This document shows, in pieces, positions 54,001 to 63,000 of a DNA stretch of 64,000 nucleotides; within the stretch, counting starts at the first letter, position 1; each line of letters opens with the position of its first letter. The stretch is taken from positions 4,051,923 through 4,115,922 of the forward strand of contig NC_072878.1 of assembly GCF_028858705.1 (NCBI RefSeq), written 5' to 3'. A program made the position numbers. The stretch is from Grus americana (Eukaryota).

Positions 54001-57000
54001 CTGCTATGTTCCATGTACAGTCCCTGCCAAACTGAACAATAGGTTCGGAGATATTAATCTTATGAAGTAAGTTGCTATGGACAGGTGCACCTACAACAAG
54101 GATACTGCACATGCCTGGAAGAAGAGGGTCACCCAGCAGACATGGGTGCATGACCACCAGAGACCCCTTGAGGACCACCGACTCAAATCACTGAGCATGC
54201 GTGACGGGGAGGAGAATATGGAAATGGATTCTAAGAAATGATTATCATAGGACTGCCTTTTCTGAGAAAAACAATGAATATGTATGTTTTGATCCCATAT
54301 AATTTGTGTGTTGGTGATCACCTGGCATGCACGTTGGGTGGAGCTGATTCCCCGTGCATCCAGCTCTGCAATAAAGAATGCCTGCCTTTTAACACTACAT
54401 TGGTGTTATGAGGTTTATTCCCGGATTTTGGTGACACGACCAGTACAGACACATACTCTGACATCATCAAGCACGTCACAAACCCCATCATGACACAAAT
54501 GACAACTCAGGGTTGGGGTAGAGGTAAGAAAAGCCAACTTGGTTGGGCTGTGACTTTTGAGGCCACCTCATGACAGCAATGAGATTTGCAGGAGCAAGCA
54601 GGCAGGCATCATGAGATCATCAAGAACACCAGATATGAAAGCTGCAGGCAGATGACTCAGTCCCTGCTGAGGCCCTGCCCTGGGGTGAAGCCACCTGTAC
54701 ATGCCATGGGAAATGGTGGGGCATGACATGAGAACTGCCAGATGTGACAGAGAACAGTGTGAGAAGGGAACACAGGTACAGGCAGCACCGTGTGGCCCAG
54801 CTGGGTCTCACAGGCAGTTGAAGAGCAGAGATGTGAGAAGTGACCAGACTGCAGAGATAACTGAAGGGGAGCATCAGGGATCTTGTTGTCGGTCAAGTCT
54901 TGCAAGGCCTACAGTGCCCTGGGGAGCCACCAGAGAGGCCATTGAAGGGACCAGGTGACGCAGGCAATGGTATAGGAACTAGCCAAGTTGGGGATGGGAA
55001 CAGCAACCTTGGGACCAATGGGGCAGAAGTAATTGGTGAGGGTTGTTAAGTGGGGAGGAGAGCGGGGCAGAGAAAGGGAGGGATCCAAGTGGACTGGGAG
55101 GAAGAATCATGTGGAAGGGGAGAGGCGAGGGATGCAAGGAGCCAGCTGCATGTGGGACAGGGTCAGGTCAGTGCTGGTCCAGCCCAACCCTGTGCCTGCT
55201 CACCATGGTCTGTCCTGCCTTCTTCAACTCTGCTCCTGGCTGTTTGCTGTGTGACTCTTCTCACCAGCGTGTGTCTGTTTGGGGGTGAAGATATGTATGT
55301 GCTTCTATGGCCAGGCCAAGTGGGGCAGGCTGGAGGAGGAGGACAGCAGGATGTGGAGAGACCCAGGGCTGGAGCGGCCTGGTGAGGAATGGCCCCAAGG
55401 CTGCGCAGGGCACCTGGGCAGACCCAAAGCCCAGGCCCACACTGGAGGGACTGTGGCTGTGGCTGTTCTGGTGGGTACCTGCTGCAGGGGATGCACAGAC
55501 CGCTTGTCACCTTCACACCAGACCAGCCTGAGAGGGGACCGGGAGGGCTCTGTGGTCATGGTGGTGTGTGTGCTGCTGGAGGTGTGGTAGCTGTAAAGGT
55601 GCTGTCCCTGGTTGGAGGTGGTCTGTGACGGGTCACCTCTGTCCATCTTGGTTTCCTTGCAGATACTGGGATTTAGCACTTTCTCTTTGGGTGAATCCAG
55701 CTTGGGCCATCGCTCACCTTGGGGTGGGTCCAGTCAGTGCCCACCACAGAGATCTGCAGGCAGCTGCAGATTCCCCTCCGGGGGAAAGTCCTGTGCACTG
55801 TCACATGTGGGATAACCCTGGGTATGTACCTCAGAGACCACTCACCATCTCCACTCTCACCACACACCAATGGCTTAGTCCAAATCCCACCCCTTGGTCT
55901 CTAACAGCCACAAAAGTGACAATTAGCTTTTCTCTCCAAAACGCAAGGAGAAACAGGACCTTTTCGGGTGAAATTCCTTGGGTCTGTTGTTGACATCAGC
56001 TTTGGAAAAACACCTCAATCATGAGGAACTGCATTGAGGAGATGCCACTTTATTACAGAGGTGCAATGAGAGAGTCTCCTCTGACCCAGGGTTAGACACC
56101 CCTATTATACAGGTGAGACAGAGCAAGTTCATTCCTCAGTACAAGTCAGATGAATCTAAACATTTACTTAGGAATAGAATAGACACAAATAAAAAAAAAA
56201 ACCAGATAACAATGACAATAATGATAAACAAACAAAATAAAGTCCTGCTTTCAGATGCCCTGTGATTCACTTGTGAAGAGAGATGGGAAGTTTACCACAA
56301 CTGAGAAACATCCATGAAATCACTTTCCTAATGGCCTCCTTGAGTTCCTGGTTCCTCATGCTGTAGATGAGGGGGTTCACTACTGGAGGCACCACTGAGT
56401 ACAGAACTGCCACCACCACATCCAGGGATGGGGAGGAGATTGAGTTGGGCTTCAGGTAGGCAAACATGCCGGTGCTGATGAACAAGGAGACCACACCCAG
56501 GTGAGGGAGGCACGTGGAAAAGGCTTTGTGCCGTCCCTGCTCAGAGGGGATCCTCAGCACGGCCCTGAAGATCTGCACATAGGACACCACAATGAAAACA
56601 AAACACCCAAAACCTACTAAGAGACTAGCCACAATAAGCCCAGCCTCCCTGAGGTAGGCATCTGAGCAGGAGAGCTTGAGGATCTGGGGAACTTCACAGA
56701 AGAACTGGTCCAGGGAATTGCCCTGGCAGAGTGGTATAGAAAATGCATTGGTCGTGTGCAGCACAGCATAGAGAAACCCACTGCCCCAGGCAGCTGCTGC
56801 CATGTGGACACAAGCTCTGCTGCCCAGGAGGGTCCCGTAGTGCAGGGGTTTGCAGATGGCAACGTAGCGGTCATAGGCCATGACAGTGAGGAGAGAAAAC
56901 TCTGCTGAAATCAGAAAGAAAAAGAAAAAGACCTGTGCAGCACAGCCTTGATAGAAGATGGCCCTGGTGTCCCAGAGGGAATTGGTCATGGATTTGGGCA

Positions 57001-60000: not shown

Positions 60001-63000
60001 ACTTCTGTCATTCTCGAAGTAGCAGAAGCGAAAGCACAGGGCAGCTGGGAACAAGACTGATGGGCAATGCAGCTCTCCTGACTCTGCCCTGAGACACCAA
60101 GAGCTGAGACCTTTTGCCTGTCTTGTCTTAAGACTCCACAATTTCCATCATAAAAAAGAGGATTTCTACCACTAAAACTAGTACTCAACAGATGTGATAG
60201 TGGAAAGGAAAAAAAAAAAAAAACCAACACAGAGAAAATCACCATAAAGACATGCTCAGCCTCTCTTCTGCAGCCCACACTCTCTGGAGTGGTGAGTGCA
60301 GATATTGAACATTTCCATGAAGGGTGAATTGCATCTGACAGCCCTTGTGACCATCGGGGGTGTCAAGAACCAGCTGCCATGTACTCACTGCAGCAGGGCA
60401 GAGCTGACTCCTTGGCAGCACAGGGGCAGAGGTCCTGCTCCTCACAGCGCATTCAGCCAGCACAAAGCAAAGAAAGGAAATGCCTTGGAATTGGGGGAGG
60501 GGGCAGGATGTCTATGAAAAATGCAGTGGCTTTGCTCAGAGAAGTCTGTTTTAATTTTCCCCTGTCTTTTCCTCCATAGGACTATGTCCCCATGTCAAGA
60601 ACCAGCAAATGTCCAACAGCAGCTCCATCAATGAGTTCCTCCTCCTGGCATTTGCAGACACACGGGAGCTGCAGCTCTTGCACTTCTGGCTCTTCCTGGG
60701 CATCTACCTGGCTGCTCTCCTGGGCAATGGCCTCATCATCACTGCCATAGCCTGCGACCACCACCTCCACACCCCCCTGTACTTCTTCCTCCTCAACCTC
60801 TCCCTCCTCGACCTGGGCTCCATCTCCACCACTGTGCCCAAATCCATGACCAATTCCCTCTGGGACACCAGGGCCATCTTCTATCAAGGCTGTGCTGCAC
60901 AGGTCTTTTTCTTTTTCTTTCTGATGTCAGCAGAGTTTTCTCTCCTCACTGTCATGGCCTATGACCGCTACGTTGCCATCTGCAAACCCCTGCACTACGG
61001 GACCCTCCTGGGCAGCAGAGCTTGTGTCCACACGGCAGCAGCTGCCTGGGGCAGTGGGTTTCTCCATGCTGTGCTGCACATGGCCCATACATTTTCTTTA
61101 CCACTCTGCCAGGGCAATTCCCTGGACCAGTTCTTCTGTGAAACCCCCTAGATCCTCAAGCTCTCCTGCTCAGACTCAGACTACCTCAGGGAAGCTGGGC
61201 TTCTTATATTAAGTTGGTTTTTAGGTTTTGGGTGTTTTGTTTTCATTGTGGTGTCCTATGTGCAGATCTTCAGGGCCGTGCTGAGGATCCCCTCTGAGCA
61301 GGGATGGCACAAAGCCTTTTCCACGTGCCTCCCTCACCTGGGTGTGGTCTCCTTGTTCATCAGCACCGGCATGTTTGCCTACCTGAAGCCCAACTCAATC
61401 TCCTCCCCATCCCTGGATGTGGTGGTGGCAGTTCTGTACTCAGTGGTGCCTCCAGTAGTGACCCCCCCATCTACAGCATGAGGAACCAGGAATTCATAGA
61501 TGCCCTGTGGAAACTATTTGACTACAATCTACTTCAAATTAATAAGGTGCCCATTATCCCACTAGGGCTCCCACTGTATCTCAGGAAAGTCAGGACTAAC
61601 CTTTCTTCATATGTGTCTTCATTCTTCCTTTGCTTTGTTTTTTATTTAGTTGATTTGTTTTGGTTTATACCTGTGATATTATTATTAGCCTGCTATCTGT
61701 TTTTTTTCTTGATTCAAATACCTCATGTACATATGGATCTAGGCTCCTTGTTTAGATAAACTCAATAGAGAAACCAGTGGAAAATTATTTGTCTCAGCTC
61801 CCATTTCTTCACATTTCCTCTGGAACTGGGCATGTAGCCCCAGCATGTAGGAGGGGTTCATAAGGCAAATCATAGAATCACAGTATGGTAGGGATTGGAA
61901 GAAGCTCTTCCTGTTGTCCTTGGCATCCCTTGCCAGATTTCATTCCAAGTGAGCCTTAGCCTTTCTTGGTGCATCCCTGCATACTCTGACAGTGTTCTTA
62001 TATTCCTCCCAAGTGGCTAGTCCCTTTTTCCACATTCAGTAAACTTCTTTCTTCCCTTTGAGTTTTTCTAGAAGCTCTTTGCTCATTCTTGCAGGTCTCC
62101 TTCCTCCTTGATTTCCTACTCTCAGGAATGCAGCAATCTTGAGCTCAAAGGAAGTGGTGCTTGAATACTGACCAGCTCTCTTGGACCCCCTACCTTCTAG
62201 AGCCCTAATCCATGGGATTCTCCCAAGCAGGTCTTTGAAGAGGTCAAAGTGAGCTCTCCTGAAGTCCATGGTTGTAATCCTACTCATTGCCCTGCTCCTT
62301 CCATGCAGGATCCTGAACTCACTGCAGCCAAGGCTGCCCTCAACCTTCACATCCTCAACCAGTCCTTCTTTGTTCATTACTACAAGGTCTAGCAGCACCT
62401 CTCTCCTCGTGGGCTCCTCTACCACCTGTGTCAAAAAGTTATCACCAATGCTCTGCAGGAACCTCCTGGACTGTGTGTGCCTGGACGTGTTGCCTTTCCA
62501 GCAAATATCTGGGTGGTTGAAGTCCCCCATGAGGACCAGGGCCTGTGACCATGAGGCTACTTCCAGATGTCTGTAGGCGGCCTCATCAACTTCCTCATCC
62601 TGATCAGGTGGCCTGTAGTAAACACCCATAACACCGTCACCCATATTAGCCTGCCCCTTAATTCTTACCCACAAGCTCTTGACTCATTCTTCATCCACGC
62701 CTAGGTGGAGCTCAATACATTCATAAAGAGCATAAAGAGCAACTCACCACCCTACCTTGCTGGCATGTCTTTCCTAAAAAGTACATAGCCATCCATGACA
62801 GCATTCCAGTCATGTGAGCTATCCCACTATGTCTCTGTAATTGCAATGACATCATGGCCCTATGACCACATGCAGATCTCTAATTCTTCCTGCTTATTCC
62901 CCAGGCTGTGTGCATTGGTGTACAGGCATTTCAGAGAGGTACTCGAGCATGGAGGTTTCCCTGGAGGGGTGCAAGTGGATCCATTGTGGTTTTACCCCAG

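What the first reader, a model, noticed from the sequence alone, without database searches (positions are those of the whole stretch)
56345..61490. Palindrome 2: 2.4 kb arms with an intact OR on one arm and a decaying copy on the other. The centre contains a CR1-tail-like fragment with a (GACCTTTAA)x3 tandem repeat
A second inverted duplication (coordinate sum 117835, axis about 58917) places OR 56267-57226 (minus, intact 319 aa) head-to-head with 60609-61500 (plus). The plus copy is about 97% identical over its first 180 codons but then carries a TAG and a frameshift. The arms each comprise the OR plus about 1.5 kb of upstream module. They are separated by about 414 bp: a 125-bp CR1-tail-like piece with a 9-mer triplication joined to the truncated left arm at 58736, then 290 bp of module present only on the right. 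This palindrome is older and more diverged than palindrome 1. It shows the expected fate of one twin (pseudogenisation) when conversion ceases. Differences between the two ORs cluster in residues 150-185 (ECL2/TM4-5), so the 5' 420 bp may still be undergoing conversion.
Basis: seen in the sequence. Interest (0 to 1): 0.55.

Follow-up and report, generated by a model that had tools for sequence, protein, structure and literature searches.

The report
Crane olfactory-receptor palindrome still exchanging sequence
Two head-to-head smell-receptor genes in a crane genome, one intact and one dead, form a real 5-kb inverted duplication that a second crane species also carries, and their inner halves still copy sequence from each other: a well-known kind of gene-family evolution, here seen in unusual detail.

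Summary
Arms 56324-58404 and 59431-61513 are 97.6% identical, and the inner 1744 bp are 99% identical. A further 163-bp inner arm segment lies on each side of a 403-bp spacer. The spacer holds a 9-mer x2.9 repeat, a CR1-tail-like piece and 286 bp found only on the right. The left OR (56267-57226, minus) is an intact 319-aa OR14/gamma-c receptor. The right copy has CAG>TAG at 61149, a 3-bp insertion and a 1-bp deletion.

The window is most likely Grus americana. The same palindrome, with the same junctions and the same TAG, is in Grus japonensis, so it is real and predates that split.

A four-way arm comparison changes the interpretation. Twelve sites in the upstream module and roughly the first 510 bp of the CDS differ between species but are identical in both arms. 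This is arm-to-arm gene conversion, still active between gene and pseudogene. An old, 25%-diverged 79-bp patch (61143-61221) that starts 6 bp before the TAG, and the 3' tail, evolve arm by arm. The central ~1 kb is inverted between the two assemblies. The inner arm also carries lineage-specific deletions.

This is a new member of a known kind, of modest interest.

The parts
56267..57226 (-). Intact OR14 / gamma-c olfactory receptor gene 'A', 319 aa, single coding exon
   Evidence: ORF. Pfam 7tm_4 at E=1.9e-52 and 7tm_1 at E=1.3e-38. It is 98% identical to G. japonensis 'olfactory receptor 14C36-like' P0010. The MAYDRY, KAFSTC and NPLIYSMRN motifs are visible in the translation.
56324..58404 (.). 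Left arm core (most of OR A plus about 1.18 kb of upstream module)
   Evidence: 97.6% identical to 61513-59431 over 2084 columns. The inner 1744 nt are 99% identical.
56716..58390 (.). Zone of concerted evolution on the left arm (partner 59445-61119). It covers the upstream module and roughly CDS nt 1-511.
   Evidence: Twelve sites have A=B but differ from both G. japonensis arms. All lie in alignment columns 74-1689. Arm-to-arm differences (7 and 6) are about half the orthologous differences (12-15) in the module.
58406..58584 (.). 179-bp segment private to the left arm in this window. It is shared with module copy C and has no counterpart in the right arm.
   Evidence: A against B is about 35% identical here, while A against C is 86-99%. 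See also the list of differences.
58585..58747 (.). Inner arm segment, left (163 bp)
   Evidence: 97% complementary to 59151-59313.
58746..58771 (.). 9-bp tandem repeat x2.9 (CTTTAAGAC, a rotation of GACCTTTAA) at the junction between left arm and spacer
   Evidence: TRF: period 9, 2.9 copies, 100% matches. It is identical in G. japonensis: window 58740-58870 (131 bp) is 100% identical.
58748..58864 (-). CR1 3'-tail-like fragment. It is truncated and lacks the terminal ATTCTRTG repeat.
   Evidence: The motif AAGATCATCAAGTCCAACC occurs 4 times in the window at up to 3 mismatches, against 0.05 expected. Copies at 48598 and 37424 begin with TCATAGAAT, the reverse complement of the CR1 3' microsatellite. 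Only about 30 bp align convincingly.
58865..59150 (+). Distal 286 bp of the upstream module. It is present on the right side only, because the left arm is truncated at 58747.
   Evidence: 96.5% identical to module copy C, 24515-24965. B against C is 93-100% identical in 100-column windows.
59151..59313 (.). Inner arm segment, right (163 bp)
59314..59430 (.). 117-bp segment private to the right arm. It is the remnant of a longer ancestral stretch. The window has lost 334 bp here relative to G. japonensis.
   Evidence: L001 8383-8716 has no counterpart in the window. The junction reads CCAGGGTCA|CATA|TTTCAAGG. 59369-59430 is homologous to the palindrome-1 module at 16298-16238.
59431..61513 (.). 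Right arm core
60609..61570 (+). OR pseudogene 'B', the twin of A. Its lesions are TAG at 61149-61151 (codon 181), +3 bp at 61176-61178 and -1 bp at 61460.
   Evidence: The TAG is shared with G. japonensis, where a 180-aa gene is called. The +3 and -1 lesions are specific to the window. B has 13 derived single substitutions against 3 in A.
61143..61221 (+). 79-bp highly diverged patch (partner 56617-56692) in the ECL2/TM5 region. It is an old, arm-specific mosaic segment that starts 6 bp before the TAG.
   Evidence: A against B differs at 19 of 81 positions. The orthologs differ at 0/80 (A-Li) and 2/81 (B-Lp). B's version shares CTTCTTATATTAAGTT with paralog E, while A's version resembles paralogs D and C.
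24515..25690 (+). Third copy (C) of the upstream module, attached to a different OR at about 26088-26961. It is related sequence and not part of the palindrome.
   Evidence: 97-100% identical to A and B over about 1.1 kb, then 71-86% through the OR.

Best explanation
This is a genuine small palindrome, with arms of about 2.4 kb and a 403-bp spacer, in the OR14 (gamma-c) olfactory-receptor cluster of a crane. The species is most likely Grus americana.

Two head-to-head OR units share their upstream module and most of the coding exon. The structure is older than the G. americana / G. japonensis split.

The arms are a mosaic of three regimes:
1. An inner core of about 1.7 kb (A 58390-56716 / B 59445-61119), covering the upstream module and roughly the first 510 bp of the CDS. 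Here the arms evolve in concert by arm-to-arm gene conversion. New substitutions, including four amino-acid changes, have been copied between the intact gene and the pseudogene.
2. A 79-bp patch (61143-61221) at about 25% divergence. It was probably imported into one arm from another OR paralog before the species split. It starts 6 bp upstream of the TAG at codon 181. I infer that it acts as a homology barrier that ends conversion tracts. That would explain why the nonsense codon has been neither repaired from the intact arm nor spread to it.
3. The 3' tail beyond 56324/61513 and the inner 179/117-bp segments. These are not homologous between the arms and evolve strictly by descent.

Recombination between the near-identical cores has also flipped the central ~1 kb, so its orientation differs between the two species' assemblies. 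The region around the centre of symmetry has collected lineage-specific deletions.

The pseudogene arm decays faster. In this window it adds a 3-bp insertion and a frameshift.

Shown: the structure, conservation in a second species, the site patterns and the lesions.
Inferred: the recombination mechanism, the barrier role of the patch, that the inversion is biological rather than an assembly difference, and that the module carries the promoter and 5' exon.
For: Structure.

OR identity.

Species:
- The OR at 33659-34591 is 311/311 identical to a G. americana protein.
- The best hit for A is G. japonensis P0010 at 98%.

Orthologous locus L001 (G. japonensis, BAAFJT010000027.1:1048964-1069923):
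- It has a 180-aa OR fragment head-to-head with the 319-aa OR.
- Its flanks are 98.4% identical to the window.
- Its own arms are 97.6% identical.
- Its spacer junction is identical over 131/131 bp.

Four-way site patterns:
- 12 sites show the species pattern (both arms alike within a species), all at columns 74-1689.
- 19 sites show the arm pattern (orthologous arms alike), all at columns 1635 or beyond.
- Mann-Whitney p=6e-6. None of 200000 permutations reaches the observed segregation.
- Without conversion I estimate about 0.07 parallel both-arm hits. That figure is my own calculation from about 1% divergence over 2 kb.

Pairwise differences:
- Module: arm against arm 7 and 6, orthologs 12-15.
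- Patch: arms 19/81, orthologs 0-2.
- Tail: arms 45/85, orthologs 0-2.

Other points:
- All 5 both-arm differences in the CDS are derived in the window lineage relative to paralogs D, C and E.
- Patch mosaicism is shown.
- Inversion: the flanks align plus/minus (L001 2902-7473 with window 64000-59431; L001 8826-18856 with window 58404-48391). The centre aligns plus/plus (L001 7300-8382 with window 58231-59313, 98.8%, no gaps; L001 8716-9000 with window 59318-59605). The 4 innermost diagnostic sites are swapped.
- Centre-focused 334-bp deletion.
- Faster decay of B: 13 against 3 derived substitutions. B-Lp differences exceed A-Li in the CDS.

Literature:
- Spacer inversion by NAHR within a chromatid and rearrangements concentrated at the centre of symmetry are described for primate X palindromes (PMC8327919).
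- Concerted evolution was proposed, but not demonstrated, for avian gamma-c ORs (PMC2758906).
Against: - Only two genomes were available, one assembly each. The polarity of most module changes and the age of the palindrome rest on within-genome paralogs, which may themselves convert.
- Four of the five CDS both-arm changes cluster within 73 bp (nt 169-241). This could reflect a single ectopic import followed by one arm-to-arm event, so the number of independent conversion events may be small.
- One both-arm site (column 1689) lies beyond two arm-pattern sites (columns 1635 and 1659). The boundary of the converting zone is therefore not clean.
- The inversion could be an orientation error in either assembly. 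The cores are 1.7 kb at 99% identity, and I could not check reads.
- A's exact protein is not in the public protein collection, although a neighbouring G. americana OR is. The source assembly is therefore not certain.
- No GC bias is visible among the polarised conversions (2 W>S, 3 S>W).
- No expression data exist for either copy.
Confidence: 0.8

Rival explanations
1. This is a plain inverted duplication whose two copies have diverged independently since conversion stopped. The high identity of the inner part would only reflect a young age or constraint.
For: - Overall arm identity is 97.6%, with a pseudogenised twin.
- B carries more derived changes than A.
- The outer CDS and the tail do evolve independently.
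Against: - Twelve sites are identical in both arms within each species but differ between species. They are confined to the inner 1.7 kb. Independent divergence predicts essentially none.
- In the module the arms are closer to each other (6-7 differences) than to their orthologs (12-15).
- The palindrome, its junction and the TAG all predate the species split. A young age therefore cannot explain the identity.
Confidence: 0.07
2. The palindrome is real and converting, but the apparent inversion of the central ~1 kb between the two species is an assembly orientation error in one assembly. It would not be a biological NAHR inversion.
For: - The inverted segment is bounded by 1.7-kb repeats at 99% identity. 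Assemblers can mis-orient sequence between such repeats.
- Only one assembly per species was available.
Against: - Both orientations are assembled cleanly, without gaps or Ns.
- The arms are short enough for single long reads to span.
- The asymmetric inner segments and the 4 innermost diagnostic sites switch sides coherently.
- Inversion of palindrome spacers is frequent wherever it has been examined, at about 50% of species comparisons in primate X palindromes (PMC8327919).
Confidence: 0.3
3. The whole inverted duplication is an assembly artefact, for example a chimeric fold-back read or a collapsed haplotype.
For: - OR clusters are difficult to assemble.
- The neighbouring palindrome 1 has 11.3-kb arms at 100% identity, which is the kind of structure artefacts can produce.
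Against: - The arms differ at about 50 positions.
- The centre is asymmetric (179 against 117 bp, and 286 bp on one side only).
- The same structure, with an identical 131-bp junction and the same TAG, is present in an independent assembly of another species.
Confidence: 0.02
4. The two ORs are an old pair of inverted paralogs, as diverged as other cluster members (85-89%). On this reading, the 2.1-kb high-identity 'arms' were created by one or a few long conversion events rather than by the original duplication. The arm boundaries would then be ends of conversion tracts, not duplication breakpoints.
For: - The outer boundary lies inside the CDS, just after the most conserved TM7 motif.
- B's tail beyond that boundary is still a recognisable but unrelated OR tail (45/85 differences; it aligns with paralog E as far as 61553).
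- In G. japonensis the inner 346-bp segments are only 89% identical.
- The A-type inner segment is closer to module copy C than to B.
Against: - With these data this cannot be told apart from a duplication whose outer breakpoint arose by homology-driven template switching in TM7.
- The identity of CDS nt 611-882 in all four sequences fits either reading.
- This rival modifies the origin story. It does not contradict the present-day mechanism, and it is compatible with the best explanation.
Confidence: 0.4

Closest known systems
Sex-chromosome palindromes of primates and mice (human Y P1-P8; X palindromes; PMC8327919, PMC8600007, PMC3723533)
   Same: - Inverted arms flank a unique spacer.
- Arm-to-arm gene conversion makes the arms more alike within a species than the orthologous arms are between species.
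- The spacer is inverted between species.
- Insertions and deletions are concentrated at the centre of symmetry.
- The palindrome is conserved across a speciation event.
   Different: - The arms are 2.4 kb, against more than 8-10 kb in those studies.
- Overall arm identity is 97.6%, and 99% only in the core, against more than 99%.
- The chromosome was not determined. OR clusters are usually autosomal or on microchromosomes.
- The cargo is an olfactory receptor, not a testis-expressed gene family.
- One arm's gene is dead, and conversion covers only part of the arm.
- No GC bias was detected in the few polarised sites.
Birth-and-death evolution with local gene conversion in vertebrate OR clusters, and the proposed concerted evolution of the avian gamma-c (OR14) clade (PMC2758906, PMC2495045)
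   Same: - The genes belong to the bird-specific expanded OR14 / gamma-c group.
- Duplication, pseudogenisation and patchwork exchange between paralogs are all visible.
- The finding supports the 'homogenised by concerted evolution within species' scenario that those papers raised as one of two explanations for species-specific clades.
   Different: - Those papers inferred concerted evolution from tree shape.
- Here it is seen site by site at one orthologous locus in two species. Its boundaries are mapped, and the exchange is between a gene and its pseudogene.
CR1 (chicken repeat 1) LINE 3' ends
   Same: The centre contains the conserved ...GACCTTTAAGATCATCAAGTCCAACC... block. Three other places in the window also carry it (two of them are the two arms of palindrome 1), and the two copies aligned sit next to TCATAGAAT, which is the CR1 3' microsatellite on the opposite strand.
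   Different: - The fragment is about 115 bp at most.
- It lacks the terminal microsatellite and any ORF.
- It carries a 9-mer triplication in place of the last ~25 bp.
- It is a relic at a rearrangement junction, not an insertion that can be dated.

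Membership tests
Vertebrate olfactory receptor, OR14 / gamma-c group | Rhodopsin-type 7TM protein that matches the OR-specific profile | tested here: met
   A matches Pfam 7tm_4 at E=1.9e-52 over residues 32-303. B's first 180 aa match 7tm_4 at E=3.4e-25.
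Vertebrate olfactory receptor, OR14 / gamma-c group | Uninterrupted single-exon ORF of about 310-320 aa with the MAYDRY, KAFSTC and NPxIY motifs | tested here: met
   A is 319 aa and carries MAYDRYVAICKPLHY, KAFSTCLPH and NPLIYSMRN. B fails this test, with TAG at codon 181 and a frameshift near codon 284.
Vertebrate olfactory receptor, OR14 / gamma-c group | Closest relatives are avian OR14-named genes | tested here: met
   All of the top 120 hits that carry a descriptive name are avian 'olfactory receptor 14A16/14C36/14J1/14I1/14K1-like', at 76-98% identity. These names are automated NCBI annotations, not tested functions.
Vertebrate olfactory receptor, OR14 / gamma-c group | Expression in olfactory sensory neurons and odorant response | not testable with these tools
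   No transcript or functional data were available.
Genomic palindrome maintained by arm-to-arm gene conversion | Inverted, near-identical arms separated by a unique spacer | tested here: met
   Arms are 97.6% identical, the core is 99% identical, and the spacer is 403 bp.
Genomic palindrome maintained by arm-to-arm gene conversion | Arms more similar within a species than orthologous arms are between species (concerted evolution) | tested here: met
   This is met in the inner ~1.7 kb only. There are 12 both-arm species differences. Arm-to-arm differences are 6-7 against 12-15 between orthologs in the module. It is not met in the patch 61143-61221 or in the tail.
Genomic palindrome maintained by arm-to-arm gene conversion | Arms larger than about 8-10 kb and more than 99% identical, the operational definition used in the sex-chromosome literature | tested here: not met
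   The arms are 2.4 kb and 97.6% identical overall. The mechanism is the same but the size class is smaller.
Genomic palindrome maintained by arm-to-arm gene conversion | Spacer orientation toggles by recombination between the arms | tested here: inconclusive
   The orientation of window 58404-59431 relative to the flanks is opposite in the G. japonensis assembly. There is only one assembly per species and no read-level check.
CR1 LINE 3' end | Conserved 3' UTR block | tested here: met
   There are 4 matches in the window at up to 3 mismatches, against 0.05 expected by chance. See also the alignment.
CR1 LINE 3' end | Terminal (ATTCTRTG)n microsatellite | tested here: not met
   It is absent from the centre fragment. 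The two other copies examined (48598, 37424) carry TCATAGAAT. That ATTCTRTG is the CR1 terminal repeat comes from my own knowledge.
Unitary or duplicated pseudogene | Disabling lesions in a sequence that is otherwise homologous to a functional gene | tested here: met
   B has TAG at 61149-61151 (shared with G. japonensis), -1 bp at 61460 and +3 bp at 61176-61178.

The most novel reading that the evidence does not exclude
A small palindrome in a bird OR14 cluster is a live conversion unit. An intact receptor gene and its long-dead twin have kept exchanging their promoter-side module and the first ~170 codons for the whole time since two crane species split. A short imported patch insulates the nonsense codon, and the centre flips by recombination between the arms. 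If such mini-palindromes are common in avian OR14 arrays (palindrome 1 in this window suggests they may be), they would provide a concrete mechanism for the long-debated species-specific clustering of gamma-c ORs. They would also mean that pseudogene twins act as sequence donors to functional ORs.
Probability: 0.55. Interest if true: 0.5.

Novelty: new member of a known kind. Interest (0 to 1): 0.35.

Why it matters
Avian gamma-c (OR14) receptors form species-specific clades. Whether this reflects independent expansions or homogenisation by gene conversion has been open since at least 2008-2009 (PMC2495045, PMC2758906). This locus gives a site-by-site example of homogenisation at an orthologous pair of genes in two crane species. 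The boundaries are mapped, and the exchange runs between a functional gene and a pseudogene.

It also shows that the behaviour described for large sex-chromosome palindromes occurs at a 2-kb scale in an OR cluster. That behaviour comprises conversion, spacer flipping and instability at the centre.

There are practical consequences:
- OR14 gene trees, dN/dS tests and intact/pseudogene counts in birds can be distorted by such exchange.
- Assemblies may legitimately differ in the orientation of such centres.

None of this is surprising in kind. It is a clean instance, not a new principle.

Tried and rejected
1. A third crane genome, to polarise changes and to test the inversion.
- Exact-protein look-ups for A, for B's 180 aa, for the palindrome-1 OR and for G. 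americana P0121 all found nothing on record.
- A protein search with B's 180 aa gave no hit above 91%.
- The cluster of G. japonensis P0010 has a single member.

2. Balearica regulorum loci for the best Balearica hits, P0035 and P0025.
- L002 has convergent, not head-to-head, ORs at about 90% identity.
- L003 has a head-to-head pair 9 kb apart at 93%, at only 85% protein identity to A.
- Orthology could not be established for either, so neither was used.

3. Donor of the 61143-61221 patch.
- Paralog E shares a 16-nt block with B, and paralogs D and C resemble A. No paralog in the window is a full donor.
- The true donor, if any, lies outside the window.

4. GC-biased conversion. Of the five polarised CDS sites, 2 are W>S and 3 are S>W, so there is no signal. 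Polarising module sites with copy C is unreliable, because C is in the same genome and nearly identical.

5. OR-promoter O/E-like sites (YCCCNNGGGR). None lies in 57227-60608. A candidate splice acceptor 32 nt upstream of the ATG is identical in both arms, but it is only a sequence pattern.

6. The idea that the CR1 piece is a datable insertion. Rejected, because the fragment lacks its 3' end and aligns convincingly for only ~30 bp.

7. Assembly artefact for palindrome 2. Rejected on the G. japonensis evidence. The same question was not resolved for palindrome 1.

Full report
**1. What is in the sequence**

The window is bird DNA from an olfactory-receptor cluster. The region 56.3-61.5 kb contains an inverted repeat that no chance model could produce.
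- BLAST aligns 59431-61513 to 58404-56324 at 97.6% identity over 2084 columns with four gaps.
It also gives a 287-nt stretch at 95% and a separate inner 163-nt pair at 97% (58585-58747 / 59151-59313).
- The spacer is 58748-59150 (403 bp).

A base-by-base alignment and a three-way alignment with a third copy of the module show that the arms are interrupted. Between the inner 163 bp and the core, the left side has 179 bp (58406-58584) and the right side has an unrelated 117 bp (59314-59430).

The spacer consists of three pieces:
- a perfect 9-bp x2.9 tandem repeat at 58746-58771;
- a CR1-tail-like piece, ending at about 58864;
- 286 bp (58865-59150) that continue the right-hand module. These 286 bp are also present in a third module copy at 24515-24803.

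The CR1 assignment rests on a conserved block. It occurs four times in the window, against 0.05 expected by chance. In the two other copies that I aligned it abuts TCATAGAAT. From my own knowledge, that is the reverse complement of the CR1 3' microsatellite. The centre fragment lacks that end, and only about 30 bp align convincingly.

**2. The genes**

OR 'A' (56267-57226, minus strand) is an intact 319-aa ORF.
- It matches Pfam 7tm_4 strongly, at E=1.9e-52.
- It carries the usual OR motifs.
- Its relatives are avian proteins annotated as OR14A16-, 14C36- or 14J1-like. This is the bird-expanded gamma-c group.

OR 'B' starts at 60609 on the plus strand.
- It differs from A at 12 of the first 543 nt.
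- It has CAG>TAG at 61149-61151 (codon 181).
- It has a net +3 bp at 61176-61178, which looks like a TCAGAC duplication replacing GCC.
- It has a 1-bp deletion at 61460 that shifts the frame just before the NPxIY motif.

The high-identity arms end at 56324 / 61513, inside the coding sequence and about 57 bp before A's stop. Beyond that point B still reads like an OR tail (…MRNQEFIDALWKLF…), but it is unrelated to A's tail, with 45 of 85 positions different.

**3. Provenance and an orthologous locus**

The OR at 33659-34591 is 311/311 identical to a Grus americana protein. A's best hit is a Grus japonensis protein at 98%. The window is therefore most likely G. americana. A's exact protein is not in the public collection, however.

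The G. japonensis gene sits in locus L001 (BAAFJT010000027.1:1048964-1069923).
- There the annotators called a 180-aa OR fragment head-to-head with the 319-aa OR.
- L001 is colinear with the window at 98.4% on both flanks: L001 2902-7473 with window 64000-59431, and L001 8826-18856 with window 58404-48391.
- It has its own palindrome with arms 97.6% identical.
- It has an identical 131-bp spacer junction, including the 9-mer triplication.

The palindrome is therefore not an assembly artefact, and it predates the split of the two species.

**4. Four-way comparison of the arms**

I aligned the four arms (window A and B; G. japonensis Li for the intact side and Lp for the pseudogene side) from the inner edge outwards. 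I then classified the sites.

| Pattern | Sites | Alignment columns |
|---|---|---|
| Species pattern (A=B, Li=Lp, species differ) | 12 | 74-1689 (A 58330-56716) |
| Arm pattern (A=Li, B=Lp) | 19 | 1635-1791 (B 61065-61221) |
| Swapped pattern (A=Lp, B=Li) | 4 | 3-13 |

- The species-pattern sites cover the upstream module and roughly CDS nt 1-511.
- The arm-pattern sites include the TAG.
- The segregation of the first two classes along the arm is extreme. Mann-Whitney gives p=6e-6, and none of 200000 label permutations reaches it.

Pairwise counts say the same thing:

| Segment | Arm vs arm (A-B; Li-Lp) | Orthologs (A-Li; B-Lp) |
|---|---|---|
| Module | 7; 6 | 12; 15 |
| 79-bp patch 61143-61221 | 19/81; 17/80 | 0/80; 2/81 |
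| Tail beyond the arm end | 45/85; 46/85 | 0/87; 2/84 |

Without exchange between the arms, a substitution that arose after the split should appear in one arm only. At about 1% divergence over 2 kb, I estimate about 0.07 parallel identical hits in both arms. Twelve are observed.

All five both-arm differences in the CDS are derived in the window's lineage relative to paralogs D, C and E. Four of them change the protein (L57, S79, T81, S171). Changes that arose in G. americana have thus been copied between the intact gene and the pseudogene. Four of the five lie within 73 bp. The number of independent events may therefore be small, and the first step may itself have been an import from a third paralog.

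**5. The patch and the nonsense codon**

Outside the patch and the innermost 14 bp, the arms share only two arm-pattern sites. At the time of speciation they were therefore almost identical on both sides of the patch.

A 79-bp island of about 25% divergence inside otherwise identical sequence is the footprint of a short ectopic conversion from another paralog.
- B's version contains a 16-nt block identical to paralog E (4101-4973).
- A's version resembles paralogs D and C.
- No paralog in the window is a complete donor.

The TAG lies 6 bp inside the 5' edge of the patch, and no paralog in the window carries a T there.

My inference is that the patch interrupts homology and so terminates conversion tracts coming from the inner arm. 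That would explain how a nonsense codon has sat next to an actively converting region since before the species split without being repaired or spread. I did not test this.

**6. Decay of the dead twin**

In G. japonensis the TAG is the only lesion. The window's B has added the +3 and -1 indels and carries 13 derived single substitutions against 3 in A. In the CDS, B-Lp differences (23) exceed A-Li differences (10). A against its ortholog shows 7 non-synonymous and 2 synonymous codon differences. That is too few for any claim about selection.

**7. The centre is inverted between the two assemblies**

The flanks of L001 align to the window in reverse. The centre aligns forward: L001 7300-8382 with window 58231-59313 at 98.8% with no gaps, and L001 8716-9000 with window 59318-59605.
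- In the window, the A-type 179-bp segment adjoins the arm with the intact OR.
- In G. japonensis, the same segment adjoins the arm with the pseudogene.
- The four innermost diagnostic sites switch sides with it.

The exchange points lie somewhere in the homogenised core, between A 58391 and 56770. This is what recombination between palindrome arms within one chromatid produces. In primate X palindromes, spacer inversions are seen in about half of species comparisons, and rearrangements concentrate at the centre of symmetry (PMC8327919).

In line with that pattern, the window's right arm lacks 334 bp that G. japonensis retains (L001 8383-8716; junction CCAGGGTCA|CATA|TTTCAAGG). The A-type side and module copy C share a different deletion relative to the longer form seen in G. 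japonensis and in the palindrome-1 module.

I could not check reads, so an orientation error in one of the assemblies remains possible. I put that at about 0.3.

**8. Origin**

Three observations suggest that the present 'arms' may be partly a product of conversion between older inverted paralogs, and not only the footprint of the original duplication:
- the outer boundary lies inside the CDS, just after the most conserved TM7 block;
- B's tail is unrelated to A's but is still OR-like;
- the inner segments are only 89% identical in G. japonensis.

The data cannot separate this from a duplication whose outer junction formed by homology-driven template switching.

The left arm's inner end (58747) abuts the triplicated 9-mer and the truncated CR1 piece. 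That junction is identical in both species, so it is old.

**9. Comparison with what is known**

The system behaves like the palindromes of mammalian sex chromosomes, with arm-to-arm conversion, spacer flipping and an unstable centre. It fails their operational size and identity criteria: its arms are 2.4 kb and 97.6% identical overall. Its cargo is an OR gene paired with its pseudogene.

It is also an instance of the birth-and-death-plus-conversion dynamics long described for OR clusters. [quoted passage not shown] This locus shows such homogenisation directly, though for a single gene pair.

I found no paper describing OR palindromes in cranes. The searchable library is limited, however.

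**10. Verdict**

The headline 'conversion ceased' is not.
- The structure is a new member of a known kind.
- Interest is modest at 0.35. It is a tidy, well-bounded example bearing on an old question in avian olfaction, not a surprise in mechanism.

Noticed in passing
window 5724-17046 and 31260-42582: 'Palindrome 1' has 11,323-nt arms that are 100% complementary, with a 14.2-kb spacer. Each arm carries an intact 311-aa OR (13712-14647 minus; 33659-34594 plus) that is identical to G. americana P0121. Perfect identity over 11 kb means a very recent duplication, very active conversion, or a false duplication in the assembly.
   Followed up: partly
window 24515-25690 (module copy C), with an OR at about 26088-26961: This is a third copy of the palindrome-2 upstream module. 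It is 97-100% identical to A and B for about 1.1 kb, yet it is joined to an OR only about 85-87% identical to A and B, and it lacks about 260 bp (A 57680-57420). It shares the A-type deletion and the B-type distal extension. The module has therefore been exchanged between non-palindromic paralogs as well.
   Followed up: partly
window 48391 (L001 18856): Colinearity with G. japonensis stops here. In G. japonensis a major vault protein (MVP) gene starts about 1.5 kb further on (L001 20389+). The window instead continues into at least 48 kb of OR-cluster sequence that includes palindrome 1, and L001 18857-20960 has no match in the window. This is either a lineage-specific expansion or rearrangement, or an assembly difference.
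   Followed up: partly
window 1-113 and 183-599, against 56267-56379 and 55780-56196: The window opens with the last 113 nt of another OR (plus strand), 97% identical to the 3' end of A. It is followed by a flank 89% identical to A's downstream flank, in inverted orientation. A's 3' end and flank therefore belong to yet another duplicated unit.
   Followed up: no
window 62036-62674 (minus): A 212-aa ORF matches the endonuclease / reverse-transcriptase family Exo_endo_phos_2 (E=2.3e-6). It is a LINE (CR1-type) ORF2 remnant just outside the right arm. It is similar at 66-72% to 7512-8271 and its palindrome-1 twin.
   Followed up: no
window 57612-57626 and 60209-60223: A T15 / A15 homopolymer lies about 385 bp upstream of each ATG, inside the ~260-bp stretch that module copy C lacks. 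G. japonensis differs from the window by small indels at both ends of the run: 1 bp extra in Lp, 3 bp missing in Li. It may be the tail of an old retroposed insert.
   Followed up: no
L001 6294-5752 region, alignment columns 1450-1460 (window equivalents A 56955-56945 / B 60880-60890): The G. japonensis pseudogene arm carries five private substitutions within 11 bp. Such a cluster suggests another micro-conversion from an unidentified paralog.
   Followed up: no
L001 708-4865: G. japonensis has a called 478-aa gene with retroviral integrase domains (rve, Integrase_H2C2) just beyond the pseudogene-side flank. Only its inner part (L001 2902 onwards) overlaps the end of the window.
   Followed up: no
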